From sequence record NC_047885.1: a DNA stretch of 64,000 bases, one strand, 5' to 3'. The position numbers were made by a program, and so were the translations under genes. This DNA comes from Escherichia phage chee24. The notes below the pieces were generated by a model that was given only the letters and a program-made list of their open reading frames with translations, was not told the DNA's origin and searched no databases. Below are positions 27,395 through 41,930 of this stretch, piece by piece; the stretch's first letter is position 1, and each line of letters starts with the position of its first letter.

Positions 27395-27763
27395 TTACAT
27401 CGCCTGAGTAAATGTACGACTAATAACGTCGTTCTGCTGTTCACGCGTCAGTGAGTTAAAACGTACAGCATACCCTGAAACACGGATAGTTAATTGAGGG
27501 TATTTTTCAGGATGTTTCTGTGCATCCAAAAGCTGATCACGACTTAACACATTGACATTTAGGTGCTGACCTCCCTCGATTTGAGGAACTACTTCCACCT
27601 TGACTTCACGGAAGGATTCGGGGTCAAAATGTGGTGTGATACCTTCTAGATCCTCAACTAGAACTTTTTGTTTAAGTTCACCATCTTTAGAGTACAGTTG
27701 AATAATCTGATTATCATGAACAAGATTAATTACGCCAGACTTAAGATTTTGATATGCTTTCAT
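27395..27763 (-). CDS. grcA: autonomous glycyl radical cofactor (GrcA/YfiD-like)
   Basis: 122 aa; C-terminus [11 protein letters not shown]...[32 protein letters not shown] closely matches GrcA as recalled, including the RVSGYA glycyl-radical motif. Confidence 0.8.
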
Positions 27764-27805
27764 TAGCTCTCCCCGATGTTAGAAATTGGCTCAGCTCTTT
27801 ATTCT

Positions 27806-28000
27806 TTATAGTTTACCACGATATACAGAAACTGTCTTACCAGTTTGGTTCATAACGTATGCTACTTCATCTTCTTTTAAGAAGATTGCTTGATCTATTC
27901 CAGAAATAGCTATGCTTTTATTTCTGGGATTAAACCCTACGCTTTTACCAACATGAATCTGCTCACCACCATCAGTGGACATTATTTTAACTGTTAACAT
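27806..28000 (-). CDS. hypothetical protein (64 aa)
   Basis: ORF. Confidence 0.4.
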   Translation of the reverse strand: MLTVKIMSTDGGEQIHVGKSVGFNPRNKSIAISGIDQAIFLKEDEVAYVMNQTGKTVSVYRGKL

Positions 28001-28027
28001 AATTGCTCCTATATTTAGCTATCTCTA

Positions 28028-28104
28028 GCTCTTTTAATGGTAGTTAGTAGTGGATTTGAACCACTATAGTCGCTCCGTATGAAGGAGGTGCATAACCACT
28101 CTGC
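28028..28104 (-). tRNA. tRNA-Met (anticodon CAT; could be fMet, Met or Ile2-type)
   Basis: Hand-folded cloverleaf: 7-bp acceptor, T-loop GGTTCAAATCC, anticodon loop TTCATAC, encoded CCA. Confidence 0.7.
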
Positions 28105-28209
28105 CAACTAACTATTATGTTTTACTAGACTAAGTAAGTATTCTTTGTACTCTTTAGGCCAATTAGCTTTTTTAAACTTTCCTGGACGCATAGTCTTAAT
28201 TCCTAAATT

Positions 28210-28286
28210 TGGTACTCCGGGAGGGATTTAAACCCCCGATCTCTCGGTTATCAGCCGAGTGCTTTAGATCGCTAAGCTACCGAAGC
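28210..28286 (-). tRNA. tRNA-Ile (GAT)
   Basis: Hand-folded; anticodon loop CTGATAA; acceptor with G-U pairs; CCA encoded. Confidence 0.65.
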
Positions 28287-28287
28287 A

Positions 28288-28494
28288 TTAATATTTGGTT
28301 GCAGAACGTTTACCATTTCTAGGCGCACCGGGAAGTCGGGCACATTCCGCCATTTTTCTTTTTATTTTGCGGATGTTTTCAGGTGTTTGATCTTCTGGTT
28401 TTAGGCCAGATACATTACACCATAGTTTACCCTCCCATGCTGTAATGATCATTACGCCGTTACACATAATCTTTTCTGTAAAAGAAATTCTCAT
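28288..28494 (-). CDS. hypothetical protein (68 aa)
   Basis: ORF between tRNA genes. Confidence 0.4.
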   Translation of the reverse strand: MRISFTEKIMCNGVMIITAWEGKLWCNVSGLKPEDQTPENIRKIKRKMAECARLPGAPRNGKRSATKY

Positions 28495-28787
28495 TATCGT
28501 ATCTCGTTTAGGTAAGAAGTATAATGGAATTTAGCTTCTCCAGTCTTATCTATTTCTACCTCAGTTCGTGGTACTTGACGAACTACATCATGAATCATCT
28601 TATAGCGAATGCCTTTAGCTGGTTCATGATCTTTTGGAAATACCTGTTTAACCGTTACTACTTTATACTCTTCACGCGGTGTTAACACAACTACTTGATC
28701 ACCTTCTTTGATTTTCCAAGAAGATGGAAATTCATAGGTATATCTTTGGCCACCAGTTTGGAATACTACAGAAAGATAACGCTTCAT
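28494..28787 (-). CDS. hypothetical protein (97 aa)
   Basis: ORF preceded by promoter at 28818-28846. Confidence 0.5.
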   Translation of the reverse strand: MKRYLSVVFQTGGQRYTYEFPSSWKIKEGDQVVVLTPREEYKVVTVKQVFPKDHEPAKGIRYKMIHDVVRQVPRTEVEIDKTGEAKFHYTSYLNEIR

Positions 28788-28817
28788 TTGGTTTCCCTCC
28801 CATTAATTTATATAAAT

Positions 28818-28846
28818 ATTATAACAAGAAATAAGAGAGAAGGCAA
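28818..28846 (-). promoter_or_regulatory. sigma70-type early promoter (-35 TTGCCT, -10 TATAAT)
   Basis: ATTATA-N17-AGGCAA; same 27-nt conserved core. Confidence 0.55.
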
Positions 28847-28861
28847 ATGAATTTTTAAATT

Positions 28862-28936
28862 TGGTGCTCCCACCAGGAATCGAACCCGGTTCAGATGCTT
28901 ACAAGGCAACTGCATCGCCAGCAATGCTTTAGGAGC
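28862..28936 (-). tRNA. tRNA-Thr (TGT)
   Basis: Hand-folded; T-loop GGTTCGATTCC; anticodon loop CTTGTAA. Confidence 0.65.
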
Positions 28937-29103
28937 GATAATCCCATTATTTCAATGGGATTTCTTTTTCAAATACAGGGGATTTATCTGACATTACTGT
29001 CATTGCCAACTGCTGAAGAAACTCGAAAGTTAGCTTTAAACGTTCTTCGCCTAATTCAATCTCAACGTATTTCTTTTGTTTGTCAACCTTTAATTTTAGG
29101 TTA

Positions 29104-29325
29104 TCAGCCATCTTCGGATTCTCGTTGCTTGGCTACTGCTAGCCAGTCTGGTAAAAGAAACTTAGTACGAAACTCTTCATACGTTTCTTCTGGGTAAAAG
29201 CTAAAACCTCCTTTCTCATCATTCAAGATAACAGAGCCGTCAGTTTGTTCATAAGCTCGGTATGTTTCCCCAATAATGATAACTCGTTTATCGGTACTTT
29301 TATTACGAAACTCAAAAACGTGCAT
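29104..29325 (-). CDS. hypothetical protein (73 aa)
   Basis: ORF between tRNA genes. Confidence 0.4.
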   Translation of the reverse strand: MHVFEFRNKSTDKRVIIIGETYRAYEQTDGSVILNDEKGGFSFYPEETYEEFRTKFLLPDWLAVAKQRESEDG

Positions 29326-29339
29326 AGAGATTCCTTATT

Positions 29340-29414
29340 TGGTGCGGGATACGAGAGTCGAACTCGTGTCTACTGGTTGGAAGCCAGTTATTCTAACCAC
29401 TGAACTAATCACGC
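29340..29414 (-). tRNA. tRNA-Gly (TCC)
   Basis: Hand-folded; anticodon arm ACTGG-CTTCCAA-CCAGT; T-loop TTCGACT. Confidence 0.65.
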
Positions 29415-29421
29415 ATTAATT

Positions 29422-29497
29422 TGGCTGGAGAAGGAGGAATCGAACCTACCATTAACGGAGTCAAAGGCCGTTGTGCTAACCGTTACACTACTCTCCA
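29422..29497 (-). tRNA. tRNA-Gln (TTG)
   Basis: Hand-folded; anticodon loop CTTTGAC; T-loop TTCGATT. Confidence 0.6.
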
Positions 29498-29503
29498 ATA
29501 ATT

Positions 29504-29579
29504 TGGCTGGGATGCCACGGATCGAACGTGGAACCTTCGGAGTCAGAGGCCGACGATCTGCCAATTGATCTACATCCCA
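29504..29579 (-). tRNA. tRNA-Gln (CTG)
   Basis: Hand-folded; anticodon loop CTCTGAC; perfect T-stem CCACG/CGTGG. Confidence 0.65.
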
Positions 29580-29592
29580 ATAATTCTTTACT

Positions 29593-29787
29593 CTACGGAA
29601 GTGGAGTAGTTGGCTCAGGTTCTTCAAGGCGCTTACCTTCATGATCTACTCGAATGACTCCGCATCCTTCGCAAACCACAACTGCACCATAACCTTCTTT
29701 GACTTCGGCTTCTGTAATCAGACCAGATAAGTCACCAGTATCTCTGCCCCACATATCAAGGGAGCATTGCTTGCAGAAATCAGCCAT
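29593..29787 (-). CDS. Cys-rich small protein (64 aa)
   Basis: ORF with CxxC..CxxC; between tRNA genes. Confidence 0.4.
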   Translation of the reverse strand: MADFCKQCSLDMWGRDTGDLSGLITEAEVKEGYGAVVVCEGCGVIRVDHEGKRLEEPEPTTPLP

Positions 29788-29811
29788 ATTTTATTTCCTA
29801 TTTAAGTTAAT

Positions 29812-29889
29812 TTGGGGTGGCTAGTGGAATTCGAATCCACATAGGCCTGATTCACAATCAGGATCATTAACCAATTATGATATAGCCAC
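29812..29889 (-). tRNA. tRNA-His (GTG)
   Basis: Hand-folded; anticodon arm CCTGA-TTGTGAA-TCAGG; extra 5' G typical of tRNA-His. Confidence 0.7.
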
Positions 29890-30117
29890 AATTGAAAACT
29901 CGCAGGGTTAGCGAAACCATCCTCAATTAGCATGTTCTAGAATACTAATCAAGTTATCTCCTATTGCACGCAGCTCAAGACGAGTACGAATTTTCAATTG
30001 TGGCGGCTCTCAGAAACTCTTCTATTCTAGCCCCAGAAGCTTACCCCCGAACGCATGTCGGGAAAGTCTTTCCAAGCGCATCAAATAGCACCGTTACACT
30101 TTGAGCCATTGATATAT

Positions 30118-30203
30118 CAAGGAACAGAAGGAGTTGAACCTTCACGAGATAGACCATTTATCTCAACCGCTTTTAAGGTATATTTCTAGGAGTGGATGTT
30201 CCT
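30118..30203 (-). other. tRNA-like element (perfect acceptor and T-arm, non-canonical D/anticodon region)
   Basis: Acceptor AGGAACA/TGTTCCT, T-arm GAAGG-TTCAACT-CCTTC, internal hairpin GAGATA..TATCTC; no standard anticodon loop found. Confidence 0.35.
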
Positions 30204-30257
30204 AGTAAACCTATTCGGCAGTCCCGTCTACCAATTCCGGCATATTCCAAGAATTTT

Positions 30258-30431
30258 TTATAAACCAGCAGAAGCCTCATTTAAAGCATCAACAATAGCT
30301 TCACGCTGGGTCATTCCGTACCCGGTGGAATCTAGGTGCGGCAAATAAGCCATCCACCCCTTATCTGTTTCATGAAGACATGCTTTAAATTTTTTACCAT
30401 CCTTCATTGTTACAGTAACTGTTTTGCTCAT
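30258..30431 (-). CDS. hypothetical small protein (57 aa)
   Basis: Hand-translated ORF with AAGGAAG RBS. Confidence 0.35.
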   Translation of the reverse strand: MSKTVTVTMKDGKKFKACLHETDKGWMAYLPHLDSTGYGMTQREAIVDALNEASAGL

Positions 30432-30451
30432 AAGACTTCCTTATAGTTAAT

Positions 30452-30541
30452 TGGCAGAAGATAATGGAGTCGAACCATCACCGTATCACTACAGCGGGCT
30501 GGTTTTCAAGACCAGTTACGTACCACTACGTCCTATCTTCT
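30452..30541 (-). tRNA. tRNA-Ser (TGA), class II
   Basis: 90 nt; anticodon arm CTGGT-CTTGAAA-ACCAG; long variable arm. Confidence 0.65.
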
Positions 30542-30554
30542 AGTATTTATTATA

Positions 30555-30902
30555 CTAATAGTCACTCGTACTAGTGAAATCTTCTACTTTTCCACAAATT
30601 TTACAAGTCCTACGATGATAGTAGGTAATTTTTACTTTAGACCAGCCATCGTGATCATTACCTAGGTTTTCTGTTACTCCCCAAGTATGGGAACACTCAT
30701 TTTCAATTTGCTTAGTAAGAGCGTTATAGCGAGTATAAAACTCCTCCTGGGCAATAGCAAACTCTTTCTGTAGTTTATCACGAGCAATAATAGCACGTTC
30801 CAGATATGTTAAATCGGGCATTCCAGCTTTTTCAGCAGCATCTATAACCTTATCTTCATCTAAAGATGCTAAAAACTCTAGAGCTTTATCTTTTGCTAAC
30901 AT
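30555..30902 (-). CDS. hypothetical protein (115 aa)
   Basis: ORF. Confidence 0.5.
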   Translation of the reverse strand: MLAKDKALEFLASLDEDKVIDAAEKAGMPDLTYLERAIIARDKLQKEFAIAQEEFYTRYNALTKQIENECSHTWGVTENLGNDHDGWSKVKITYYHRRTCKICGKVEDFTSTSDY

Positions 30903-30924
30903 TATTATTATTACCTCAAGTGTT

Positions 30925-31015
30925 TGGCGGAAGAGGAGAGATTTGAACTCTCAAGCCGTTTTACCAGTCAGCCACTTTCCAAGCGGTTTTCGTCGCCAAT
31001 TCGATTTGCTCTTCC
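30925..31015 (-). tRNA. tRNA-Ser (GGA), class II
   Basis: 91 nt; perfect T-arm GAGAG-TTCAAAT-CTCTC; anticodon loop TTGGAAA; long variable arm; resembles E. coli tRNA-Ser architecture. Confidence 0.55.
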
Positions 31016-31127
31016 AATAATAAGATGATGCCTCTATCACGCCAGACAGTTACGCCTCGCTGGGATTCGAACCCATTAAAACAGCTCAACCGAGATAGTA
31101 GGTTTAATTTACTCTGACCATCAAATT

Positions 31128-31204
31128 TGGTGCGTGACAAGGGATTCGAACCCTCAAAACCCGACTTCTAAGGACGGTATGTATGCCAATTCCATCAATC
31201 ACGC
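31128..31204 (-). tRNA. tRNA with anticodon TAG (Leu-type anticodon, class I shape)
   Basis: 77 nt; 7-bp acceptor, T-loop TTCGAAT, anticodon loop CTTAGAA, discriminator A; short variable arm. Confidence 0.5.
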
Positions 31205-31209
31205 GTATT

Positions 31210-31288
31210 TGGTGGAGGATAACGAATTCGAATCGTTCTGATGTCCTCGGTGCAAGCGAGGTGTCCACTCCCAGCAGACCCATCCCCC
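31210..31288 (-). tRNA. tRNA-Ala (TGC)
   Basis: Hand-folded; anticodon arm CCTCG-CTTGCAC-CGAGG; G3-U70 pair in acceptor stem. Confidence 0.65.
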
Positions 31289-31546
31289 AAAATCTTTAGT
31301 TTACTAAGGCTATTAGCTCGGCGTAACTACAGCACCTTCGCTTCGAGCGGAAGGAACTGCGTCATCTCGCAAACCCGATACACTATTCAGTTGCCATGAA
31401 TCTAGTGGACTAATCTAGAACTTCTCCCAAATCGTAGGGATCGTGCTTTTTGGCAGCCAGTCCTAGGTCGAGCTAATACCTTAGTGAACTATGATGAGGA
31501 TTTCTCCCCATCAATTTATATAAATATTATAACAAGAAATTAAGCA

Positions 31547-31906
31547 TTAAGCAAGTACATTTTTGCAGATTTCTTGTAATTCCTTTACATCACGAACGTA
31601 AAGGTAGTCTGAACTTCCAGAGTGCATACTTTGCATAAACACACCCTCATCTGGCGCAGTATCCTTCAGAGTAATTCCTAACCAAAAAGCGGCAAAACGA
31701 GGTGTTACCTCACCTTGACTTGCCTTGAATACATCGGCTTCTGTGATCTCCTGACCAGTAGAAAGTCCCATATACGGTACGTTCAGATCAATATCTTTGT
31801 AGAATTCAGCTAGGTCTTGTTCGAAGTCCCAACCTTTAGAGATAGCGAACTCTATTGTTACATGACCGAAATAGCCTTGAACCTTGCTTGATAATTGCAT
31901 TTGCAA
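31547..31906 (-). CDS. hypothetical protein (119 aa)
   Basis: ORF. Confidence 0.5.
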   Translation of the reverse strand: MQMQLSSKVQGYFGHVTIEFAISKGWDFEQDLAEFYKDIDLNVPYMGLSTGQEITEADVFKASQGEVTPRFAAFWLGITLKDTAPDEGVFMQSMHSGSSDYLYVRDVKELQEICKNVLA

Positions 31907-31925
31907 TTCCTTATTTTGAGTTAAT

Positions 31926-31999
31926 TGGTACTCGGTGATAGAATCGAACTATCGCAACCGCCGTGTAAAGACGGGGTTCTCCCATTAAACTAACCGAGC
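31926..31999 (-). tRNA. tRNA-Val (TAC)
   Basis: Hand-folded; perfect T-arm GATAG-TTCGATT-CTATC; anticodon loop TTTACAC. Confidence 0.6.
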
Positions 32000-32132
32000 A
32001 AAAGATTTGCTACTAAAAATGCTTCGAACAGAAATTCACAAAATCCCGCTAAAAACATACCTATTGTAAAATCGGCAGAAAATACATAGGAATCTTTTAT
32101 TTTCTGCTTCATTAAGTAAAACCAGATAGTCA

Positions 32133-32450
32133 TTAAAATCTCTCCATTCTAAAGCCAATGAAGTAAGGTGCATTACACGGAACATGCTTAAGATCTTTAA
32201 GAGTAATTTTACGTCCTAAGCGTCGTTCCATACAAGTGAAACATAGAACAATATCTTTGGGCTGCTCTTTTCTTATCTGATCCCAGACCCAATCTTCAAC
32301 CATACACATTTCATGGTATTGTTCACAGTCTCGACAATAATGACACTGATGTTCTGGTACTTTTTGATTTTTAATACACAGTTCAGTAAAGCGTTTTCCG
32401 GCTCTGCCAGACATTTCTGATATTGTTTCTAGAACTTTGTTAATATTCAT
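32133..32450 (-). CDS. Cys/His-rich protein (105 aa)
   Basis: ORF with several Cys/His clusters. Confidence 0.45.
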   Translation of the reverse strand: MNINKVLETISEMSGRAGKRFTELCIKNQKVPEHQCHYCRDCEQYHEMCMVEDWVWDQIRKEQPKDIVLCFTCMERRLGRKITLKDLKHVPCNAPYFIGFRMERF

Positions 32451-32467
32451 AACAAATTCCTTTAAAT

Positions 32468-32546
32468 TGGTAGATCGCCTGGGACTCGAACCCAGAACCT
32501 TCCGATTAAAAGTCGGATGCTACTAAACCTATTGAGCTAGCGACCT
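32468..32546 (-). tRNA. tRNA-Lys (TTT)
   Basis: Hand-folded; anticodon arm TCCGA-CTTTTAA-TCGGA; T-arm CTGGG-TTCGAGT-CCCAG. Confidence 0.7.
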
Positions 32547-32739
32547 ATTAGTAGCCATTATATACTTCTTTAATAGAATAGACTTTTAGGTAAGAATGAT
32601 TAATCCCAAACTCCGCCATTACTTCTTTTTCATTTTTTCCATAATGTGCAAGTAAGAATCTTGAGGTATTATTACCTAAACGTTTGTCACTTACTACTAA
32701 TCGAAATACTTTCATTTCGAAATCCTCTATTAAAAGGGA

Positions 32740-32813
32740 AGCGGGTGCAGGAATCGAACCTACCTCTTTCTAGCTTATGAGACTAGCGATCTCTACCAGA
32801 GATCTAACCCGCA
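32740..32813 (-). tRNA. tRNA-Met/Ile2 (CAT)
   Basis: Hand-folded; anticodon arm CTAGT-CTCATAA-GCTAG; CCA not encoded; acceptor register uncertain. Confidence 0.55.
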
Positions 32814-32819
32814 ATTGTT

Positions 32820-32895
32820 TGGTCAGTGCGGCAGGACTCGAACCTGCGACCCGAAGCATCCAAGGCTCCCACGCTACCAACTGCGCTACGCACTG
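32820..32895 (-). tRNA. tRNA-Pro (TGG)
   Basis: Hand-folded; perfect acceptor; D-arm GCGC-AGTTGGTA-GCGT; anticodon loop CTTGGAT. Confidence 0.7.
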
Positions 32896-33347
32896 TTAAT
32901 TTTGTTAACTCACTTTATAAGATATATTATACAGAGAATTAAGTAAAATAGCAAATGAATTTTTAATAAATTTACTTATTATGTAGGCCGCCTGGAGGCT
33001 ACCAACCCCACGGCTGACAAAGAAGTTTGCGAGACTTCTCTTAAAAGCCAGAATAGACCCGCCGGTCTATCGGAACCTACATAATAAGTAAACTTTATAG
33101 TGTCATTCTAGGCAGGACTCGAACCTGCTATCACTTGTGCGGACTTACGAGAACCATTCTTTCACTCGAATCGAACGAGCTTCTGCCCTCGCCAAGCTGG
33201 TTTCCCCCATCAACCACGCTAGAATGTTAGATTGTTTTCAGTGCAAGAGTCCGAGTCTTGGACACGACCGCTTCGCAAGTACATAGGCAGCTTATCATGA
33301 GTCAGCACTTCCGAATTGCTAGCTCCGTGTTCTGCACTGAAATTTTA

Positions 33348-33695
33348 TTAGTTTAATCGTAAAGTATTATCTACTTCACCATTAATTGTTCGGCATTCCT
33401 CTGGAATTGCCGGGGTGGCCTTGTATTCCCACCATTCAGCACCGTCATATTCCCCACGTTCTAGCCAAGTTCCATCGGCAAACCATACATTACCATAAAG
33501 TAATTGTCCGCCGTATCCAGAATCATATTCAAAGTCTAGGTTATTAAGAAAATCCTCAATATCTTCTTCTGTATAGCCTAAAGGTAATACCCAGACTTTT
33601 TTGTCCCCATAATACCCAAATTCTATTTTAATACACTTAACTTCAGAATTAGTATTTTTTAAGGCAAGTAACAGCTCTTCTTTAGCATTACGCAT
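33348..33695 (-). CDS. hypothetical protein (115 aa)
   Basis: ORF. Confidence 0.5.
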   Translation of the reverse strand: MRNAKEELLLALKNTNSEVKCIKIEFGYYGDKKVWVLPLGYTEEDIEDFLNNLDFEYDSGYGGQLLYGNVWFADGTWLERGEYDGAEWWEYKATPAIPEECRTINGEVDNTLRLN

Positions 33696-33720
33696 AATAT
33701 ATTCTCATACTGAATTAATT

Positions 33721-33797
33721 TGGCGCGACCGATGGGATTTGAACCCACATTCTCTCCCGTGACAGGGGAGTACCATTACCAAGCCAGCCCCGGTCGC
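33721..33797 (-). tRNA. tRNA-Asp (GTC)
   Basis: Hand-folded; anticodon arm CTCCC-CTGTCAC-GGGAG; T-loop TTCAAAT. Confidence 0.7.
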
Positions 33798-33806
33798 ATA
33801 ATTTAT

Positions 33807-33992
33807 TTACTCAGCTTTGAGTTTTTCAATAGCTGCATTAAGTTCTTTAAGAAACTCTTTTCGTACATTAAGACGATTGAGACTTACTAGTATATCATGT
33901 TTAAGTTCTTCGATGTATTTCTTCTCAACTTCAATATTGTTGATAGTACTATCACGATGAACTTCTAGCTGCGCAATCACATTCTTGGACAT
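33807..33992 (-). CDS. hypothetical protein (61 aa)
   Basis: ORF. Confidence 0.4.
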   Translation of the reverse strand: MSKNVIAQLEVHRDSTINNIEVEKKYIEELKHDILVSLNRLNVRKEFLKELNAAIEKLKAE

Positions 33993-34094
33993 GCTTGTTT
34001 CCTCAGTTATTAATGAAAATGGTATCTGTGGCTGAATTCGATGTCAGCAATGATAGCTGGTTGGCTACCGGTTTACTTAACTCTACACAGAATT

Positions 34095-34172
34095 TGGCGG
34101 TTCCTGCTGGATTCGAACCAGCAACCCTCAACTTAACAAGATGCCGCTCTAACCAATTAGAGCTAAGGAACC
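34095..34172 (-). tRNA. tRNA-Asn (GTT)
   Basis: Hand-folded; perfect T-arm GCTGG-TTCGAAT-CCAGC; anticodon loop TTGTTAA; anticodon stem imperfect. Confidence 0.55.
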
Positions 34173-34667
34173 ATATAAGTCAGAACTAGAGTTAATACGT
34201 CCTAGATATTTACTAAGATCCCTAGAATTTATACTAAACCACTCATGTTCTTTTAAATCTTTGAAATACTGGTGAATTAGTTTTTCACCTTTTCGTTTGT
34301 CAAACCAAAAAGACCAATGCTCTAACTTATAATCCCTATAGGGGGAATAAGTCTGATATTGAGCTAATCTCTCTTTTGGATTTTGACTCATACCTATTTT
34401 ATACTGATTTTTCCATGCAGGATTACTAATACAGTATACAAAACCTTCGGAAATAGGAAGTTTATTTTCCTGCTTAAACTTTATAAAGGAAAGTGCAGCA
34501 AGTTTTCTTGAATACATAGTATTCGTATTCTTTTTGGTATTACCATTGGTTCCTGAAAGATTTATATATTCTTCTATAAATCTCTGGATTAGTTCTGCGG
34601 TTATATAGAAGGGCTCATTAGTAACAACGCCTTTCTTTACCAAACTATCAAAAACTTTTGTATGCAC
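34149..34667 (-). CDS. T5orf172-domain (GIY-YIG-like) protein
   Basis: 172 aa; the Pfam T5orf172 family is named after a 172-aa ORF of phage T5; 3' end overlaps tRNA-Asn call by about 24 nt. Confidence 0.6.
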   Translation of the reverse strand: MHTKVFDSLVKKGVVTNEPFYITAELIQRFIEEYINLSGTNGNTKKNTNTMYSRKLAALSFIKFKQENKLPISEGFVYCISNPAWKNQYKIGMSQNPKERLAQYQTYSPYRDYKLEHWSFWFDKRKGEKLIHQYFKDLKEHEWFSINSRDLSKYLGRINSSSDLYGSLALIG

Positions 34668-34688
34668 TACTTCTTTCCTTTAGTAATT

Positions 34689-34764
34689 TGGACGACCGCA
34701 TGAGATTTGAACTCACATAAAAAGGATTTGCAATCCTTCGCCTAAGCCATTCAGCCAACGGTCG
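34689..34764 (-). tRNA. tRNA-Cys (GCA)
   Basis: Hand-folded; anticodon arm AAGGA-TTGCAAA-TCCTT; T-loop TTCAAAT. Confidence 0.7.
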
Positions 34765-34942
34765 ATTTATCTTGTTTTTCGAGATCTTCAAATTCTAAAT
34801 CATTGAAGTTCCCTAGAGTACGGGAGTAGAACCCGTCTCCTACGTCATAGCCTGATTTACCACAATCACACATTTTAAACTCTCTATAACGAGTGAAAAT
34901 ATGTTCAGAACCACAACACTTAAATTTAACTAACATTTTCAT
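34751..34942 (-). CDS. Cys-containing small protein (63 aa)
   Basis: ORF. Confidence 0.4.
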   Translation of the reverse strand: MKMLVKFKCCGSEHIFTRYREFKMCDCGKSGYDVGDGFYSRTLGNFNDLEFEDLEKQDKSTVG

Positions 34943-35181
34943 TTAACACGCTCCGGTAAATCTTCGAGTTTATATTGGGTAGCCACATTAGCAGCATCTA
35001 GTAACAAACCCATATGTTTAAGAATCCTGGTGATAGCCTCGCCTTCTGCTTCTTCTACAAAGCAACGTAGATTAACGAAGTCAATACCACCATCCATACC
35101 AGAGAAAATGTTTAGTAAGCGAAACATTACCAGCTTACGTTCTTTCAATTCTTGTTCTGTCATGTTGCTTCTCCAGTTCAA
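34939..35181 (-). CDS. hypothetical protein (80 aa)
   Basis: ORF. Confidence 0.45.
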   Translation of the reverse strand: MNWRSNMTEQELKERKLVMFRLLNIFSGMDGGIDFVNLRCFVEEAEGEAITRILKHMGLLLDAANVATQYKLEDLPERVK

Positions 35182-35213
35182 TTTATGTAATTATTATATA
35201 GAACTTTTGGAAA

Positions 35214-35501
35214 CTAAGCAACTACATTTTTTAGGAATTTGATCCCTTTCTTTTTCTTCTTATATTTCCACGTTAATGGATTCTGTCGATTATGAACGCT
35301 TGAGATCTTTGTCTCGTCAAAGTTCTTCAATATCATGTAATCACAGGATAATTGTTCTAGTGGAATGTGATCACCGTCAAAAGCGTATACATAAGGCTGT
35401 TGACTAGCACGATAATGATAGACTTTGTTAATTCTACGTTTCAGCGACTTATCCGCGCAGTAAATAAAGAAGTTTTCAGGATGCATCAGCATCTCCTTCA
35501 A
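35214..35501 (-). CDS. hypothetical protein (95 aa)
   Basis: ORF. Confidence 0.45.
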   Translation of the reverse strand: MKEMLMHPENFFIYCADKSLKRRINKVYHYRASQQPYVYAFDGDHIPLEQLSCDYMILKNFDETKISSVHNRQNPLTWKYKKKKKGIKFLKNVVA

Positions 35502-35503
35502 TT

Positions 35504-35578
35504 TGGTGCACCCTGTTCGTATCGAACGAACCTCTCAAGCTCTTCAGGCAAGCGCTAATCCATCTCAGCTAAAGGTGC
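35504..35578 (-). tRNA. tRNA-Phe (GAA)
   Basis: Hand-folded; anticodon loop CTGAAGA; T-arm GTTCG-TTCGATA-CGAAC; anticodon stem has mismatches. Confidence 0.5.
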
Positions 35579-35584
35579 AAATTT

Positions 35585-35660
35585 TGGCAAACCCACTAGG
35601 ACTCGAACCTAGACCGTACGGTTTTGGAGACCGACATGCTGTCCAGTAACACTCTAGGAA
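35585..35660 (-). other. tRNA-Trp-like 3' portion (anticodon CCA) lacking a pairing 5' acceptor strand
   Basis: T-arm CTAGG-TTCGAGT-CCTAG, CCA end and CGGTCTCCAAAACCG anticodon region resembling tRNA-Trp; no complementary 5' acceptor found. Confidence 0.35.
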
Positions 35661-35669
35661 TGCAGAAAT

Positions 35670-35763
35670 TGGTACACCCACGGAGAATTGAACTCCGATT
35701 CTCAGATTGAACTCCGATTCTCAGATTGAAATCCTGATGTCCTAGCCATTAGACGATAGGTGT
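35670..35763 (-). tRNA. tRNA-Glu (TTC) carrying a 19-nt tandem duplication
   Basis: 94 nt; acceptor, D-arm and anticodon arm TCAGG-ATTTCAA-TCTGA intact; unit ATTGAACTCCGATTCTCAG repeated at 35687-35705 and 35706-35724. Confidence 0.5.
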
Positions 35764-35771
35764 ATTAAATT

Positions 35772-35859
35772 TGGTGGGCGTTAATGGAGTCGAACCACTC
35801 GAGTCGCAATGACCAGGGATTTACAATCCCCTCCGCTACCACTTACGGAATAAACGCCC
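35772..35859 (-). tRNA. tRNA-Tyr (GTA), class II
   Basis: 88 nt; anticodon arm GGGGA-TTGTAAA-TCCCT; long variable arm; perfect acceptor. Confidence 0.65.
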
Positions 35860-35987
35860 ATATTTAGAAGCATTCAAATACTTGTTTAAACACTTTTAAA
35901 TATGTTTCCGAATTAGATAACTATTATACCAAGTTTTAAGGCACTGAGCAAGTCAAATTTTAAAGAACTTGCTCAGTGCTGTATTAG

Positions 35988-36263
35988 TTAGTCGAACTTA
36001 GGAGTGATAGTTAAGGAGAACGGAAGTTCGAAAACTTCTTCGCCCTCATTACTAACGGTAACTACACGACCTTTAAGTTCAGACATTAAAATATCAATAT
36101 CAGCTTTTGCATCTGGAGCCATGCCAGCTTCAATACATTTAGCTTTAACTTCCGGTAAAAGCTCTACGTTATAGAGATAGAGCCACTCAATCTCACCTTC
36201 CCAGTCTTCCCAGGATTTGCAGATTGCACTTTCAATACCAGTTGCTACAACACGATTTTGCAT
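35988..36263 (-). CDS. hypothetical protein (91 aa)
   Basis: ORF. Confidence 0.5.
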   Translation of the reverse strand: MQNRVVATGIESAICKSWEDWEGEIEWLYLYNVELLPEVKAKCIEAGMAPDAKADIDILMSELKGRVVTVSNEGEEVFELPFSLTITPKFD

Positions 36264-36353
36264 TAATTAACTCCTTCATCAATTTATATAACTATTATAC
36301 CAGAAATTTAAAGTAAAAGGCAAGTACATTTTTAAAAATTCTGTTTGGAGGAG

Positions 36354-36560
36354 CTAAACTCCAGATTTTTCGGCCAAGTCTAGACTAATAAGAGTTATAG
36401 CCATAATTGCTGCACCGTGTTCTTTTTCTCCGGTGTTTTTAGCAGAGTCTATAATATCCTTAATCTGTTCGTAATAACTTTTTACTTCTTGTTCAATGCC
36501 TGCCTCGGCTATCATGCCTTTAGCCATGAATCGTTGCATGGTAATTTCAGGATTAGCCAT
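36354..36560 (-). CDS. hypothetical protein (68 aa)
   Basis: ORF. Confidence 0.4.
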   Translation of the reverse strand: MANPEITMQRFMAKGMIAEAGIEQEVKSYYEQIKDIIDSAKNTGEKEHGAAIMAITLISLDLAEKSGV

Positions 36561-36735
36561 GTTGTTTCTCCAGTTTCATTTTTAATAGTTTACAGATGAA
36601 ATCAACGTCTTCATCTGTGCCTAAGTCTCTATCCTCAAGGGTCGCCTTGAAGTTTTTCGTCAATTCCATGAGGATGACTTCCCTAGAACGACGTGTTGGC
36701 GGAGGTGGATGTCTATACATCTTATTTCCTTAATT

Positions 36736-36812
36736 TGGTAGGGGTGGTGGGATTCGAACCCACAAAACCTGAATTTTAAGTCCAGTACCTATGCCAATTC
36801 GATTACACCCCC
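36736..36812 (-). tRNA. tRNA with anticodon TAA (Leu-type anticodon, class I shape)
   Basis: Hand-folded; acceptor GGGGGTG/CACCCCT, T-arm GTGGG-TTCGAAT-CCCAC, anticodon arm CTGGA-CTTAAAA-TTCAG, discriminator A. Confidence 0.5.
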
Positions 36813-37107
36813 ATGTAATCAGTTTATTAGTTGATACATATTATAGCCTAAAGAAAACCCTACTACTAATCCTACGAACCAACCAATATAATAATCTTTT
36901 AATTTCACGGGTGTCAACCTCGTTCAATATCTAGAGAAATACCACAGGTAGGATTAATGCCTGTGCCTTTGCACGTCGGACAAACCCAGATATTACAGAA
37001 TGTATCCCCTGCTTCTGCATCAGAACTTTTCCAACTCCTAGACAGTTAGGACAGGCACATTCTTCTAGCTCTTGCTTGAGTTCTTGAAACTTAGACATAT
37101 AGTTTCC

Positions 37108-37296
37108 TTATTCAATTACTTTTGAGGCTTCAAGGGAGTCGATATAGTGTACGTTTTCTACCATGATCATATAATCTGCCACTTTATCCATAGCCTGAGC
37201 TTCAGAGGTAGCCCTGGCTAACCTATATCCTTTTTTATATTCATCCGGGTATTCCCTATCTGGAATAAACACAACACAAACTAGGTATAGTTCCAC
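37108..37296 (-). CDS. hypothetical protein (62 aa)
   Basis: ORF. Confidence 0.4.
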   Translation of the reverse strand: MELYLVCVVFIPDREYPDEYKKGYRLARATSEAQAMDKVADYMIMVENVHYIDSLEASKVIE

Positions 37297-37317
37297 TTGT
37301 AACCTCTCTAATCAAGA

Positions 37318-37395
37318 TGGTGGCTCCCCGAGGATTCGAACCTACGTACCTTCCGGTTATGAGCCGGATGCTCATACCATATGAGCTTGAGAACC
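37318..37395 (-). tRNA. tRNA-Met/Ile2 (CAT)
   Basis: Hand-folded; perfect anticodon arm TCCGG-CTCATAA-CCGGA; D-arm GCTC..GAGC; T-stem weak. Confidence 0.6.
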
Positions 37396-37401
37396 AGAAT
37401 T

Positions 37402-37490
37402 TGGCGGAAGAAGTGGGAATCGAACCCACAAGGCTATATTTCAAACCGACAGATTAGCAATCTGCTGCAATACCGTTATGCTATTCTTCC
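37402..37490 (-). tRNA. tRNA-Ser (GCT), class II
   Basis: 89 nt; perfect acceptor GGAAGAA/TTCTTCC; anticodon arm GCAGA-TTGCTAA-TCTGT; long variable arm. Confidence 0.65.
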
Positions 37491-37511
37491 GAATTTATAA
37501 GATATATTATA

Positions 37512-38030
37512 TTAGAAATTTAGCTTCATAGCAAGAAAATTTTTCAAGTTTTCGGTAGACATCTCATCCACATCTACAGGAGAAACAAATCCATTTAATT
37601 GTCTAGCAAATTTTTCACCAGCAGGATCATTATCCCCAACAGCTACCAATTTAAAAGGTAGTAATTTCAATTGCTTTAACAACGCTTTTCCTGGAGAAGA
37701 ACCCAACATTGCCAGGGCTGGATAACCAGCGTTATGTAATGCTACGGCCTTAAATACAGATTCCGCAACCAATACTACTTTTTCATCCCCATTGAGAGTT
37801 TCCAGCCCCCATACACACTGTGTAGTAGAATAAGTAAAATACTTAGCTTCAAAAGGAGATTTACCATGACCTTTTGGAGCAGAAGGATTATAAGTCTGAT
37901 AGCCTCTCAACATCCCAGAGAAGTCATACAATGGGACTGTTAGCCATCCTTCCGGACTTAACCAGCAATGATATTTATCTGTATCAAACCCTCTAGATAA
38001 GAGATGTTCTGTTAGTTCATCAACAGTCAT
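37512..38030 (-). CDS. Toprim-like domain protein
   Basis: 172 aa; VVLVAES ... VAVGDNDPAGEKFARQL resembles Toprim acidic motifs; promoter at 38059-38087. Confidence 0.5.
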   Translation of the reverse strand: MTVDELTEHLLSRGFDTDKYHCWLSPEGWLTVPLYDFSGMLRGYQTYNPSAPKGHGKSPFEAKYFTYSTTQCVWGLETLNGDEKVVLVAESVFKAVALHNAGYPALAMLGSSPGKALLKQLKLLPFKLVAVGDNDPAGEKFARQLNGFVSPVDVDEMSTENLKNFLAMKLNF

Positions 38031-38058
38031 ATTAGATTCCTCTCAAATTTATAAATAT

Positions 38059-38087
38059 ATTATACAGAGGATTTAGCATTCAAGCAA
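38059..38087 (-). promoter_or_regulatory. sigma70-type early promoter (-35 TTGCTT, -10 TATAAT)
   Basis: ATTATA-N17-AAGCAA; drives 37512-38030. Confidence 0.6.
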
Positions 38088-38203
38088 TTGAATTTTTTAA
38101 CTTTTTAGAGGAAAATCACAGGATGCTTACGGGTAGCAGGTAAGTGGTCAGGACCGAAATTTGTGACCCCACTAAAAATCTGGGGTCAATTTTTAAAGAC
38201 CCC

Positions 38204-38232
38204 TTGACATTTTTGCCGGGGTAGTGTAAAGT
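38204..38232 (+). promoter_or_regulatory. sigma70 promoter (-35 TTGACA, 17-nt spacer, -10 TAAAGT)
   Basis: Consensus -35; preceded by overlapping GACCCC/GGGGTC hairpins. Confidence 0.55.
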
Positions 38233-38294
38233 ATATGTTATGGATGAGTGATCAAAGAGACACACATTTTCTATATACTAGGAGGTGTCAAAAA

Positions 38295-39275
38295 ATGACA
38301 GAAGAAGTAGCTAAGAGTCCTGAAACCGTCGCTAGCGTAGCAGCAGAACTGCATCGTCACGAGGAATCAGATAAGAAAAAGTGGGAGAAAGTCAAAGCCT
38401 ACGAAGAAGAACATCGTGAACACGATGATAAAGATGAAGAAGATGACGATGATGAACATTGTCATAAATATGGAAAACATAAAATGCAAGAACCAGTAAA
38501 CGTATTTACTAATGGCTTCCCTGGCATGGGTGCATTCCCAGCTAACGCAAGTGCTTTCGGTGGAGAAGGTATGGGTCTATTCGGAGCTATCCTAATCGGT
38601 GCTCTATTAACAGGCGGATTTGGTGGTTTTGGTGGTTTTGGCCGTGGTGCTGGCGTTGCCGCTGAAGGGACTGCTGTGGACGCGATCCTTTCTAACCAAG
38701 ATACTGCAAGTATTCTAGCTGCAATCAATACTACTCGTACAGAAGCTAACCAGGGCACTGGGGCTGTTCTAAGCGCAGTAAACGGTGTGGGAGCTGCTCA
38801 AGCTGCTAGCACTCAGCAAGTTCTGACTACTATCTACGGTACAGGTGCTAATCTGTCAAACCAGATCTGTGCTGAAACTCGTAACGTTATTCAGGGTCAG
38901 TTCGATCTTTCTCGTCAGATGGATCAATCTTTCGCTGCTAACCAGATCGCACGTGCTCAAGATAAGTTTGACTCTGCTCAGATTGCTTTCCAGCAGTCTA
39001 TTCAGACCAATAACCAGTTTGCCGCTGTTCAGGCTCAGATGTGTGCTAACCAGAATGCTATAGAGCGTCAGCTTGCTGAATGTTGCTGTGAACTTCAGAC
39101 TGCGATCGCTGGTGTAACTACTGCGCGTATCCAGGACGAACTGAATGAATGCCGTCTGCGTGAAGCAATCGCTCAAGGTAGTGGTGCTAACGGTCAGGTA
39201 ATTAACCAAATCGCTGTAAGTCTTGGTGCTATCACTCAGACTCTGGCTGGTCTGCAGGCTAAACTGCCGGCTTAA
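38295..39275 (+). CDS. low-complexity protein: acidic N-terminus, Gly-rich hydrophobic segment, Gln/Ala-rich C-terminus
   Basis: 326 aa from ATG with AGGAGG RBS inside track ORF 38235-39275; consensus promoter at 38204-38232. Confidence 0.6.
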   Translation: MTEEVAKSPETVASVAAELHRHEESDKKKWEKVKAYEEEHREHDDKDEEDDDDEHCHKYGKHKMQEPVNVFTNGFPGMGAFPANASAFGGEGMGLFGAILIGALLTGGFGGFGGFGRGAGVAAEGTAVDAILSNQDTASILAAINTTRTEANQGTGAVLSAVNGVGAAQAASTQQVLTTIYGTGANLSNQICAETRNVIQGQFDLSRQMDQSFAANQIARAQDKFDSAQIAFQQSIQTNNQFAAVQAQMCANQNAIERQLAECCCELQTAIAGVTTARIQDELNECRLREAIAQGSGANGQVINQIAVSLGAITQTLAGLQAKLPA

Positions 39276-39296
39276 AATTAAGGGGAGGAGCCCATT

Positions 39297-39713
39297 ATGA
39301 GTAAATATGGTTTTGTAAACAACGGATTTAATCAACAAATGGGCTCCCAGCAGCCCGTTCCGGGTCTGGATAATCCTTACCTACAACAGTTGCAACAGCG
39401 TTTAGCAGAAGCGCAACAGATGCAGCAACAACTCCAGCAAAACCCTGGAAGTGTGAGTCCTATGCAAATGATGCAGCAAATGAGCGGGCAGTCGCAAATG
39501 CCTCAACAAATGCAGCAACAGGTGCCTCAGCAGCAAGTTCAGCAACAAACCCAACAACCGCAGGTTTCTGCGGAAGGACAGGCAGTACTAGCTCTTTTCG
39601 AAGATTTCGCAAAGACAGAGGATGGGAAACAGCTTGTATCACTTATGGGTAAGTTTAATAGCTTCTGCCAAAGCCAGGTTGCAAAAGCTCAAAATGGTGA
39701 TAATAACTCCTAA
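39297..39713 (+). CDS. glutamine-rich protein (138 aa)
   Basis: ORF with GGGGAGGAG RBS; second gene of rightward operon. Confidence 0.55.
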   Translation: MSKYGFVNNGFNQQMGSQQPVPGLDNPYLQQLQQRLAEAQQMQQQLQQNPGSVSPMQMMQQMSGQSQMPQQMQQQVPQQQVQQQTQQPQVSAEGQAVLALFEDFAKTEDGKQLVSLMGKFNSFCQSQVAKAQNGDNNS

Positions 39714-39722
39714 GGAGGAATT

Positions 39723-39917
39723 ATGTGTTGCAGAAAATCTGTTTCGTGCTGCCCAATGCCTGTAGCACGTTGTTGCTCTCCAGCAATGTTTACACAAATA
39801 CCGGCGTTCAATCCCTTTGCCTTTAAGCCTACTCTTATCCTGCCCCCTAGAGTAGATTTTCAGTCAAGATTGGCCTCCCGTATGGGTGGTTGCTGTAACA
39901 AGAGTATATGGTTCTAA
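39723..39917 (+). CDS. Cys-rich small protein (64 aa)
   Basis: ORF with AAGGAGG RBS; contains 8 Cys including CC pairs; followed by hairpin terminators. Confidence 0.5.
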   Translation: MCCRKSVSCCPMPVARCCSPAMFTQIPAFNPFAFKPTLILPPRVDFQSRLASRMGGCCNKSIWF

Positions 39918-39933
39918 AGAACCAATAATAAAA

Positions 39934-39968
39934 AGCCCCTAGTCGAAAGACTTAGGGGCTTTTCTCTT
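39934..39968 (+). terminator. rho-independent terminator (possibly bidirectional)
   Basis: Hairpin AGCCCCTAGTC..GACTTAGGGGCT flanked by AAAA upstream and TTTT downstream. Confidence 0.65.
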
Positions 39969-39984
39969 ATCTTAAATACAGAAA

Positions 39985-40016
39985 AGCCCTGCGCTCTCCA
40001 GGGAACGCAGGGCTTA
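39985..40016 (-). terminator. rho-independent terminator for leftward SPFH gene
   Basis: Hairpin AGCCCTGCG..CGCAGGGCT with T-run on minus strand. Confidence 0.6.
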
Positions 40017-40038
40017 CTTCGAATATTACGTGTGGGTA

Positions 40039-40986: not shown

Positions 40987-41020
40987 ATATTTCCTTTGTT
41001 TTAGTTACAGTTAATAAAAT

Positions 41021-41095
41021 TGGCCGAGGTGACAGGATTCGAACCTGCATAAAGGAATTTAGAAGACTCCTGCCTCTCCCTTAGACTACACCCCG
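41021..41095 (-). tRNA. tRNA-Arg (TCT)
   Basis: Hand-folded; anticodon arm GGAGT-CTTCTAA-ATTCC; T-arm GCAGG-TTCGAAT-CCTGT. Confidence 0.65.
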
Positions 41096-41922: not shown

Positions 41923-41930
41923 ATAAATTT

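What the first reader, a model, noticed from the sequence alone, without database searches (positions are those of the whole stretch)
30118..35660. Degenerate tRNA-like elements scattered in the array
Several elements have perfect T-arms and acceptor stems but no canonical anticodon or D arm (30118-30203), or only a 3' half (tRNA-Trp-like at 35585-35660; T-arm remnant at about 31055-31127). They may be tRNA pseudogenes, processing signals, or tRNA-derived structured RNAs.
Basis: seen in the sequence. Interest (0 to 1): 0.4.

Follow-up and report, generated by a model that had tools for sequence, protein, structure and literature searches.

The report
Phage T5 tRNA-like stable RNAs
The window is the tRNA gene cluster of a T5-like coliphage: one flagged "degenerate tRNA" is the already catalogued T5 stable RNA "RNA1", one is an ordinary tRNA-Trp, and the third is part of a conserved folded RNA that no record I fetched annotates.

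Summary
The window is 100% identical to "T5-like pork27" (Tequintavirus).

- **30118-30203.** This is the 3' 86 nt of T5 "RNA1", which GenBank lists for T5 and BF23 as a "tRNA-like stable RNA with unknown functions". The real element is 30119-30249(-). It is a tRNA-Leu-type cloverleaf whose 7-nt anticodon loop is replaced by a 47-nt helix capped by an invariant ACAUCCAC loop. No CCA is encoded. Thirteen of 36 pairs show compensatory changes across 18 relatives.
- **35585-35661.** This is a complete tRNA-Trp(CCA). It scores weakly because of two U.U mismatches in the acceptor stem.
- **"T-arm remnant".** This lies inside a ~107-nt element at 31021-31127(-). It is conserved in about 245 T5-like phages of Escherichia, Salmonella, Klebsiella, Erwinia and Pectobacterium hosts. 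It has four helices, and 10 of 22 pairs are compensated. A T arm stacks on a loop-closed, acceptor-like hairpin. It is absent from T5, has no Rfam match and is unannotated in the records fetched.

Two more annotated tRNA-like RNAs, RNA2 and RNA3, lie in the same range.

Verdict: real elements and mostly known. The boundaries were corrected, one claim was refuted, and one modestly new member was found. Function is unknown.

The parts
30119..30249 (-). RNA1, a tRNA-Leu-derived stable RNA. The T5 annotation maps to 30108-30251; the tRNA-like body is 30119-30249.
   Evidence: 143/144 identical to rna1 of AY543070. RF00005 aligns end to end at 24.0 bits, with 47 nt in place of the anticodon loop. 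My own covariance model scores 155.9 bits.
30243..30249 (-). RNA1 true 5' acceptor strand, UGGAAUA. It pairs with UGUUCCU at 30120-30126; pair 1-72 is U.U.
   Evidence: Four of 7 pairs show compensatory change in 18 relatives.
30224..30240 (-). RNA1 D arm, CCG-GAAUUGGUAGA-CGG (class II, tRNA-Leu type).
   Evidence: Invariant in 18 relatives. Aligned as the D arm by Rfam.
30166..30222 (-). RNA1 extended 'anticodon' arm. It has stem ACUGC/GCGGU, an inner 4-bp helix, the hairpin CUAGGA/UCCUAG and the invariant apical loop ACAUCCAC (30192-30199).
   Evidence: Eight of the 15 pairs are compensated. The loop is invariant.
30146..30164 (-). RNA1 long variable arm, GAGAUA-AAUGGUC-UAUCUC.
   Evidence: 100% paired, one compensated pair.
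30127..30143 (-). RNA1 T arm, GAAGG-UUCAACU-CCUUC.
31021..31127 (-). Element B, a conserved structured spacer RNA between tRNA-Leu(UAG) and tRNA-Ser(GGA). It is unannotated in the records fetched. Helices: P1 31116-31123 / 31026-31032; X 31094-31098 / 31034-31038; T arm 31061-31075; hairpin H 31041-31060.
   Evidence: A covariance model built only from Pectobacterium, Erwinia and Klebsiella phages hits here at 78.7 bits, E 2e-18. 99.4% of cells are paired and 10 of 22 pairs are compensated. Helix X pairs in 30/30 cells.
35585..35661 (-). Complete tRNA-Trp(CCA) with a weak acceptor stem.
   Evidence: Shared at 96-99% identity with other T5-like phages, many of which annotate it tRNA-Trp.
33101..33226 (-). 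RNA2, annotated in T5 as a 'tRNA-like stable RNA'. It has an 8-bp terminal stem and two T-arm-like hairpins.
   Evidence: 96% identical to rna2 of AY543070. Fold; T-arm motifs.
34020..34092 (-). RNA3, annotated in T5 as a 'putative tRNA-like RNA'. It is 73 nt, ends in ACCA and has no D stem.
   Evidence: 100% identical to rna3 of AY543070. Fold z-score -3.0.
30925..31015 (-). tRNA-Ser(GGA), missed by ARAGORN and by Rfam at gathering threshold.
   Evidence: Annotated in MF431731 and BF23. Weak covariance-model hits only.

Best explanation
The region is the tRNA operon cluster of a T5-like phage. Besides about 27 working tRNAs, it carries several tRNA-derived non-coding RNAs.

RNA1. The element at 30118-30203 is the 3' two-thirds of T5 RNA1. 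It descends from a tRNA-Leu and keeps the acceptor stem, the Leu-type D arm, a long variable arm and the T arm. These are the parts that make the L-shaped body. The anticodon loop is replaced by a 47-nt irregular helix with an invariant ACAUCCAC apical loop, and no CCA is encoded.

Inferred mechanism for RNA1. It is co-transcribed with the neighbouring tRNAs. RNase P and 3' trimming probably excise it, because its T-arm and acceptor module looks like a tRNA. The tRNA body makes it stable. It cannot decode. The conserved extended arm is the likely functional surface, binding an unknown protein or RNA partner.

Element B (31021-31127). It uses the same logic in a different topology. A T arm stacks directly on an acceptor-like hairpin that is closed by a loop. 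Two further helices (X and P1) hold this together, and the flanking tRNAs' processing sites would release it.

tRNA-Trp is simply a functional-looking tRNA with a mismatched acceptor stem.

Shown here: identity, boundaries, secondary structures and conservation. Inferred: processing route, stability in this phage and function.
For: - Identity. The window is 100% identical to MF431731. The RNA1-RNAI-RNAIII-tRNA-His block differs from T5 by one substitution. T5 and BF23 records annotate rna1, rna2 and rna3 as tRNA-like stable RNAs of unknown function.
- RNA1 structure. The minimum-free-energy fold is a cloverleaf. Rfam's tRNA model aligns end to end with a 47-nt loop. In 18 distinct homologs from four genera, 95.4% of cells are paired and 13 pairs are compensated, against 1-2 in slid controls.
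- Descent from tRNA-Leu. The RNA1 model's best non-self hits are five tRNA-Leu genes at 32-40 bits, with one tRNA-Ser(GCU) at 34.6 bits among them. The D loop GAAUUGGUAGA is read from the sequence; that it is typical of bacterial tRNA-Leu is my own knowledge.
- Element B. About 245 phage records hold it. There is one copy per genome, and it is found by a model trained on other genera. Ten of 22 pairs are compensated, and helix X has 6 strand variants that all pair.
- tRNA-Trp.
Against: - No expression, end-mapping or processing data exist for this phage. 'Stable RNA' rests on depositors' annotation for T5 and BF23.
- The annotated RNA1 ends (30108 and 30251) do not coincide with the tRNA-like ends (30119 and 30249).
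- The Klebsiella-phage version of RNA1 has an acceptor helix that appears to extend to about 14 bp by my manual pairing. That is not a typical RNase P / CCA substrate.
- The T5 deletion mutant T5-123 (deletion 29191-32442) appears to span rna1 and is viable (PMC11464382). Any function is therefore dispensable in the laboratory.
- Single-sequence folding energy of element B is unremarkable (z = -0.16).
- The alignment used was fitted to the model, so it leans towards the structure.
Confidence: 0.75

Rival explanations
1. They are decaying tRNA pseudogenes or recombination scars. In this view there is no selected function, and they were left behind by the gene shuffling and homing-endonuclease traffic typical of T5 tRNA regions.
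For: The array is mosaic. T5 has an HNH endonuclease gene (hegC) exactly where element B sits. tRNA-Glu in this lineage carries a fresh 19-nt tandem duplication. RNA1 and its neighbours appear deletable in T5.
Against: RNA1 and element B are conserved across Tequintavirus, Epseptimavirus, Sugarlandvirus and Hongcheonvirus with many compensatory pair changes and invariant loops. Element B is more conserved than the tRNAs flanking it.
Confidence: 0.07
2. RNA1 is a real tRNA-Leu gene interrupted by an intron. The 40-47-nt insert would be spliced out to give a decoding tRNA, for example CUUAAAA = Leu(UAA) in this phage.
For: The insert sits exactly in the anticodon loop of an otherwise complete tRNA. 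In the window, joining C32 to UUAAAA would give a Leu(UAA) loop, as read from the sequence.
Against: The putative exon junctions are not conserved. Relatives would give CAUAAA or AAAAC rather than a constant anticodon (alignment A6). The insert is far too small for a group I intron and there is no intron hit in Rfam. The insert itself is the most strongly covarying and loop-invariant part, which is the opposite of a spacer. There is no encoded CCA and the discriminator is U73.
Confidence: 0.05
3. The elements act only as punctuation. In this view they are tRNA-shaped RNase P / RNase E landmarks that free the neighbouring RNAs (RNAI, RNAIII, tRNAs, small ORF mRNAs), and the excised pieces have no role of their own.
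For: RNA1 abuts RNAI, RNAIII and tRNA-His with 0-4-nt spacers. Element B fills the whole gap between two tRNAs. RNAI and RNA3 end in CCA after a terminal stem.
Against: Punctuation needs only an acceptor and T-arm minihelix. It does not explain invariant apical loops (ACAUCCAC, AAUGGUC), the covarying 47-nt arm or helices X and P1 of element B.
Confidence: 0.13

Closest known systems
Bacteriophage T5 / BF23 'RNA1' (GenBank AY543070 rna1, AJ604530 rna1), together with RNA2 and RNA3 of the same records
   Same: 143/144 identical sequence and the same position between ORF T5.063 and RNAI. RNA2 and RNA3 are also present at 96-100% identity.
   Different: Nothing for RNA1 itself. The records give only coordinates and 'unknown functions'. 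The cloverleaf with a 47-nt anticodon-loop replacement, its tRNA-Leu ancestry and its covariation were worked out here.
Canonical tRNA (Rfam RF00005), specifically class II tRNA-Leu
   Same: Acceptor stem, U8, a 3-bp D stem with a GG-containing loop, a 5-bp anticodon stem, a long variable arm and a T arm with a UUCRANU loop. tRNA-Leu genes are the best secondary hits of the RNA1 model.
   Different: A 47-nt structured insert replaces the 7-nt anticodon loop. Pair 1-72 is a U.U mismatch, no CCA is encoded, the score is below Rfam's threshold (24.0 against 29), and ARAGORN does not call it.
Phage T4 'species 1' and 'species 2' stable RNAs (rnaC, rnaD) in the T4 tRNA cluster
   Same: From my own knowledge, not tested here: small stable RNAs of unknown function, encoded among phage tRNA genes and matured by the tRNA-processing machinery.
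   Different: No sequence comparison was made. T4 sequences were not fetched.
Bacterial Y-RNA-like YrlA RNAs (tRNA-like module with ends leaving through a long stem)
   Same: Element B has a T arm stacked on an acceptor-like helix that is closed by a loop, and the RNA's ends leave through other helices. This resemblance is recalled from memory.
   Different: No Y RNA family appeared among the hits even at E <= 10 on the isolated element. There is no local D-arm hairpin. Helix X encloses the T arm and hairpin, which is a different topology. E. coli K-12 lacks Ro, from my own knowledge.

Membership tests
T5 stable RNA 'RNA1' | Sequence identity and synteny with the annotated rna1 of T5 or BF23 | tested here: met
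   143/144 identical. Flanked by the T5.063 homolog and RNAI, RNAIII and tRNA-His as in T5.
T5 stable RNA 'RNA1' | Accumulates as a stable RNA in infected cells | not testable with these tools
   This rests on the depositors' annotation only. No paper in the searchable library describes it.
Canonical tRNA (RF00005) | Score at or above the Rfam gathering threshold, or a call by a tRNA finder | tested here: not met
   RNA1 scores 24.0 bits against 29. ARAGORN makes no call. tRNA-Trp at 35585-35661 does meet it, at 34.1 bits plus an ARAGORN call.
Canonical tRNA (RF00005) | 7-nt anticodon loop presenting an anticodon | tested here: not met
   RNA1 has 47-48 nt between the two strands of the anticodon stem, with no conserved triplet at the junctions.
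Canonical tRNA (RF00005) | Acceptor stem, D arm and T arm in cloverleaf order, supported by covariation | tested here: met
   the acceptor has 4 compensated pairs, the D stem is invariant and the T arm is 100% paired.
Intron-containing tRNA (group I or bulge-helix-bulge type) | A conserved mature anticodon loop after removal of the insert, and recognisable intron structure | tested here: not met
   The junctions vary among relatives. There is no intron family hit. The insert is only 47 nt.
Y RNA / YrlA (considered for element B) | Match to an Rfam Y-RNA-type model; a Ro-binding stem plus a tRNA-like module with a D arm | tested here: not met
   No such hit at E <= 10 on 30990-31140. No D-arm hairpin appears in the covariation-supported structure.
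tRNA pseudogene | Loss of constraint: pairs break freely and there are no compensatory changes | tested here: not met
   95-99% of cells are paired, with 13 (RNA1) and 10 (element B) compensated pairs.

The most novel reading that the evidence does not exclude
Element B (31021-31127) may be an undescribed class of phage tRNA-mimic RNA. In it, a T arm stacked on a loop-closed acceptor-like hairpin is presented by two covarying helices. It is conserved from Escherichia and Salmonella T5-like phages to Klebsiella, Erwinia and Pectobacterium ones. Together with RNA1, RNA2 and RNA3, it would form a phage toolkit of non-decoding tRNA look-alikes. These could bind or titrate a host tRNA-recognising factor, such as a processing or modification enzyme or a tRNA-targeting defence nuclease, rather than serve translation.
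Probability: 0.25. Interest if true: 0.6.

Novelty: new member of a known kind. Interest (0 to 1): 0.35.

Why it matters
T5's tRNA cluster is now known to matter in the arms race with tRNA-cleaving defences; a T5 tRNA-Lys neutralises PARIS (PMC11464382). The non-decoding tRNA look-alikes in the same cluster have carried 'unknown functions' in the T5 and BF23 GenBank records. Correct boundaries, supported secondary structures, a tRNA-Leu ancestry for RNA1 and one more conserved member make these RNAs directly testable by deletion, pull-down and defence-system screens. For annotation, the result shows that hundreds of T5-like genomes leave RNA1 and element B blank or cover them with spurious ORFs.

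Tried and rejected
Rejected by covariation.
- **Intron reading of RNA1.** Rejected because the junctions are not conserved.
- **'tRNA-Ser' labels under RNA1 hits in relatives.** These only abut the element by one base.
- **Pairing targets in the window for the loops ACAUCCAC and AAUGGUC.** Only chance-level 8-mers were found.
- **RNA1 pattern in 185,579 bacterial and archaeal genomes.** The 5 hits were all chance matches.
- **One viral-contig scan wasted** on a gap range that was one base too tight.
- **Looser element-B pattern in viral contigs.** It mostly picked up ordinary tRNAs and coding DNA.
- **Aeromonas T5-like phage tRNA region.** Neither RNA1 nor element B is present.
- **A CAGUG/CACUG helix in element B.** It is invariant in three groups, lost in the Tequintavirus group and would cross helix X, so it is left unresolved.
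- **Literature searches.** These found no open-access description of the T5 stable RNAs.
- **Promoter and terminator scan.** Nothing specific appeared in the spacers. The RNA1 T arm is a false 'terminator'.
Full report
**What the window is.** Bases 29800-31400 are 100% identical to "Bacteriophage T5-like pork27/pork29/saus47N" (Tequintavirus chee24) and 93-98% identical to many T5-like phages. ARAGORN finds 26 tRNA genes, all on the minus strand between 28038 and 41671. Rfam finds 23 at gathering threshold. Five-bp T-arm motifs occur 27 times on the minus strand of 27500-42500 and never on the plus strand, against 0.31 expected from shuffles. This is the classical T5 tRNA gene region.

**Element 1 (30118-30203).**

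There is a perfect T arm, GAAGG-UUCAACU-CCUUC (30143-30127). The 3' strand UGUUCCU (30126-30120) is perfectly complementary to AGGAACA (30203-30197). Those 86 nt contain no D arm.

The annotated reference genome of T5 (AY543070) and the BF23 tRNA-region record (AJ604530) place three misc_RNA features between tRNA-His and a small ORF. They are RNAIII, RNAI and RNA1, and RNA1 is described as a "tRNA-like stable RNA with unknown functions". The window differs from T5 by one substitution over this block. RNA1 therefore maps to 30108-30251, RNAI to 30001-30107 and RNAIII to 29891-29996.

The whole RNA folds as a cloverleaf. When the isolated region is scanned, Rfam's tRNA model aligns end to end to 30119-30249 at 24.0 bits, below the threshold of 29. 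The aligned parts are:
- acceptor UGGAAUA/UGUUCCU, with a U1.U72 mismatch;
- D arm CCG-GAAUUGGUAGA-CGG;
- anticodon stem ACUGC/GCGGU enclosing 47 nt instead of 7;
- a ~20-nt variable arm;
- the T arm.

I collected 18 distinct homologs from Tequintavirus, Epseptimavirus, Sugarlandvirus (Klebsiella) and Hongcheonvirus (Pectobacterium) phages. On this alignment the full model has 95.4% of cells paired. Thirteen of 36 pairs have changes on both sides, against 1-2 for slid controls. Four of those pairs are in the upstream acceptor, for example GGAAUA/UGUUCC changing to GAAGUA/UGCUUC. Eight are in the three helices of the inserted arm.

AGGAACA is in fact the 3' end of a hairpin stem plus the start of its loop. 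The apical loop ACAUCCAC and the variable-arm loop AAUGGUC are almost invariant.

A covariance model of RNA1 finds one copy each in the window, T5 and the Pectobacterium phage (137-156 bits). Its next best hits (32-40 bits) are five tRNA-Leu genes and one tRNA-Ser(GCU). With the Leu-type D loop, this indicates descent from a tRNA-Leu.

No CCA is encoded; the sequence runs UGUUCC-UUGA. An intron reading fails because the would-be mature anticodon loop is not conserved: CUUAAAA here, other sequences in relatives. About 491 phage records contain RNA1. Scans of bacterial genomes gave only chance hits, and an Aeromonas T5-like phage lacks it.

**Element 2 (35585-35660).**

This is a complete tRNA-Trp(CCA) at 35585-35661 by ARAGORN and by Rfam at 34.1 bits over model positions 1-71. 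Its 5' half is present but weak: U2.U71 and U3.U70 mismatches in the acceptor, G.U pairs in the D stem and U27.U43. That probably made it look like half a tRNA by eye. The same gene is shared at 96-99% identity with other T5-like phages, and many of them annotate it tRNA-Trp.

**Element 3 (T-arm remnant, about 31055-31127).**

The 112-nt spacer between tRNA-Leu(UAG) 31128-31204 and tRNA-Ser(GGA) 30925-31015 has no counterpart in T5. There, the HNH endonuclease gene hegC occupies the site. The spacer is present but unannotated in BF23.

It occurs in about 245 phage records. These include Klebsiella (Sugarlandvirus), Erwinia and Pectobacterium phages at 72-78% identity. In those phages it is better conserved than the tRNAs beside it.

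I built a covariance model only from the Pectobacterium, Erwinia and Klebsiella versions. It finds exactly one copy per phage. In the window the hit is 31021-31127, at 78.7 bits and E 2e-18. It also finds a divergent copy in a 1.1-kb metagenome contig next to tRNA-Arg and tRNA-Thr.

The structure has four helices:
- P1: 31116-31123 with 31026-31032.
- X: CUAUC 31094-31098 with GAUAG 31034-31038.
- T arm: UGGG-UUCGAAU-CCCA, 31061-31075.
- Hairpin H: 31041-31060, a 7-position stem (6 pairs plus a G.G mismatch) that starts immediately after the T stem, as acceptor position 66 follows 65 in a tRNA, but is closed by a loop.

On the MAFFT alignment, the three helices first recognised (P1, the T arm and H) are 100% paired, with 3 compensated pairs. 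Helix X, checked by script, has six strand variants, all fully paired (30/30 cells, against 4-21 for slid registers). On the model-guided alignment, which leans towards the structure, 99.4% of cells pair and 10 of 22 pairs are compensated, against 0-1 for slid controls.

No Rfam family matches. The fold energy of the single sequence is unremarkable. The 5' domain between P1 and X remains unresolved. This is a selected RNA structure, not a remnant. Its T arm plus acceptor-like stack is a tRNA-like module in a non-tRNA topology.

- T5's RNA2 maps to 33101-33226. It has an 8-bp terminal stem and two T-arm-like hairpins.
- RNA3 maps to 34020-34092. It is 73 nt, has a U.U first pair, has no D stem and ends in ACCA.
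- RNA2H maps to 31308-31478 and RNAIV to 32982-33082.
- tRNA-Ser(GGA) 30925-31015 is a real annotated tRNA that both tRNA finders miss.

**How it most likely works.**

Shown here: identities, boundaries, structures and conservation.

Inferred: these RNAs are co-transcribed with the tRNAs. Their acceptor and T-arm modules make them substrates for RNase P and 3' trimming, so they are cut out and persist as compact, tRNA-shaped molecules. RNA1 cannot decode. Its conserved extended arm and invariant loops are the likely functional surface for an unidentified partner.

A pure "punctuation" role is possible but does not explain the conserved loops and extra helices. A pseudogene origin is contradicted by covariation.

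Function is dispensable in the laboratory. A viable T5 deletion mutant (deletion 29191-32442) appears to remove RNA1, RNAI and RNAIII (PMC11464382, citing Glukhov et al. 2018).

**Novelty and verdict.** RNA1, RNA2 and RNA3 are already catalogued in GenBank. From memory, they come from the Ksenzenko laboratory's work of the 1980s to 2000s, which I could not retrieve. tRNA-Trp is ordinary. Element B is unannotated in every record I fetched, so it is a modest new member of the same kind. The finding is real and mostly known. It is partly mis-bounded and wrong on one of its three items.

Noticed in passing
window 35670-35763 (-): tRNA-Glu(UUC) is 94 nt long because of a perfect 19-nt tandem duplication, AUCUGAGAAUCGGAGUUCA x2. 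The repeat runs from the 3' anticodon stem into the T loop. Rfam still aligns it as a tRNA with a 20-nt insertion (47.5 bits). The relatives oselot and S124 are 19 nt shorter, so the duplication looks specific to the pork27/chee24 lineage.
   Followed up: partly
window 31128-31204 and 36736-36812 (-): Both tRNA-Leu genes (UAG and UAA) are 77 nt with a short variable loop, so they are class-I sized. T5's own tRNA-Leu(UAG) is an 85-nt class II tRNA with an unrelated sequence. The BF23 record says the 77-nt version works as an amber suppressor once its anticodon is changed.
   Followed up: no
window 30925-31015 (-): tRNA-Ser(GGA) is annotated in MF431731 and BF23 but is missed by ARAGORN and by Rfam at gathering threshold. 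Only a 19.7-bit tRNA-Sec hit appears. The BF23 note says it does not become a suppressor.
   Followed up: partly
window 31210-31288 (-): tRNA-Ala(UGC) is 79 nt. ARAGORN calls it, but Rfam does not report it even at E <= 10. It is unrelated in sequence to T5's 75-nt tRNA-Ala.
   Followed up: no
L006 / L033 (Klebsiella Sugarlandvirus RNA1 homologs): By my manual pairing, the acceptor helix of RNA1 continues to about 14 bp (GCGCGUUGAUGCCG / CGGGGUUAGCGUGU) with no free 3' tail. This suggests a different maturation route, for example cleavage by a double-strand-specific RNase.
   Followed up: no
L061 (metagenome contig ERZ808232 NODE-7939), minus strand ~120-70: Directly after the divergent element-B copy there is a minimal 'stem + T arm' unit: UGCUUU...AUUGG-UUCGAAU-CCAAU-AAAAGCA. 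It shares the GUUUUAA motif before the T arm with element B.
   Followed up: no
window 30001-30107 and 29891-29996 (-): RNAI ends in a 5-bp terminal stem followed by GCCA, which resembles a tRNA acceptor end. RNAIII folds into a long, closed three-way structure (z = -2.85). Both are annotated in T5 as stable RNAs of unknown function.
   Followed up: partly
L080 (Aeromonas phage vB_AdhS_TS3 tRNA region): This distant T5-like phage has several unannotated gaps of 240-390 nt between tRNA genes and a 'tRNA-Pyl(CUA)' call. Neither RNA1 nor element B is present, so the gaps may hold other non-coding RNAs.
   Followed up: no
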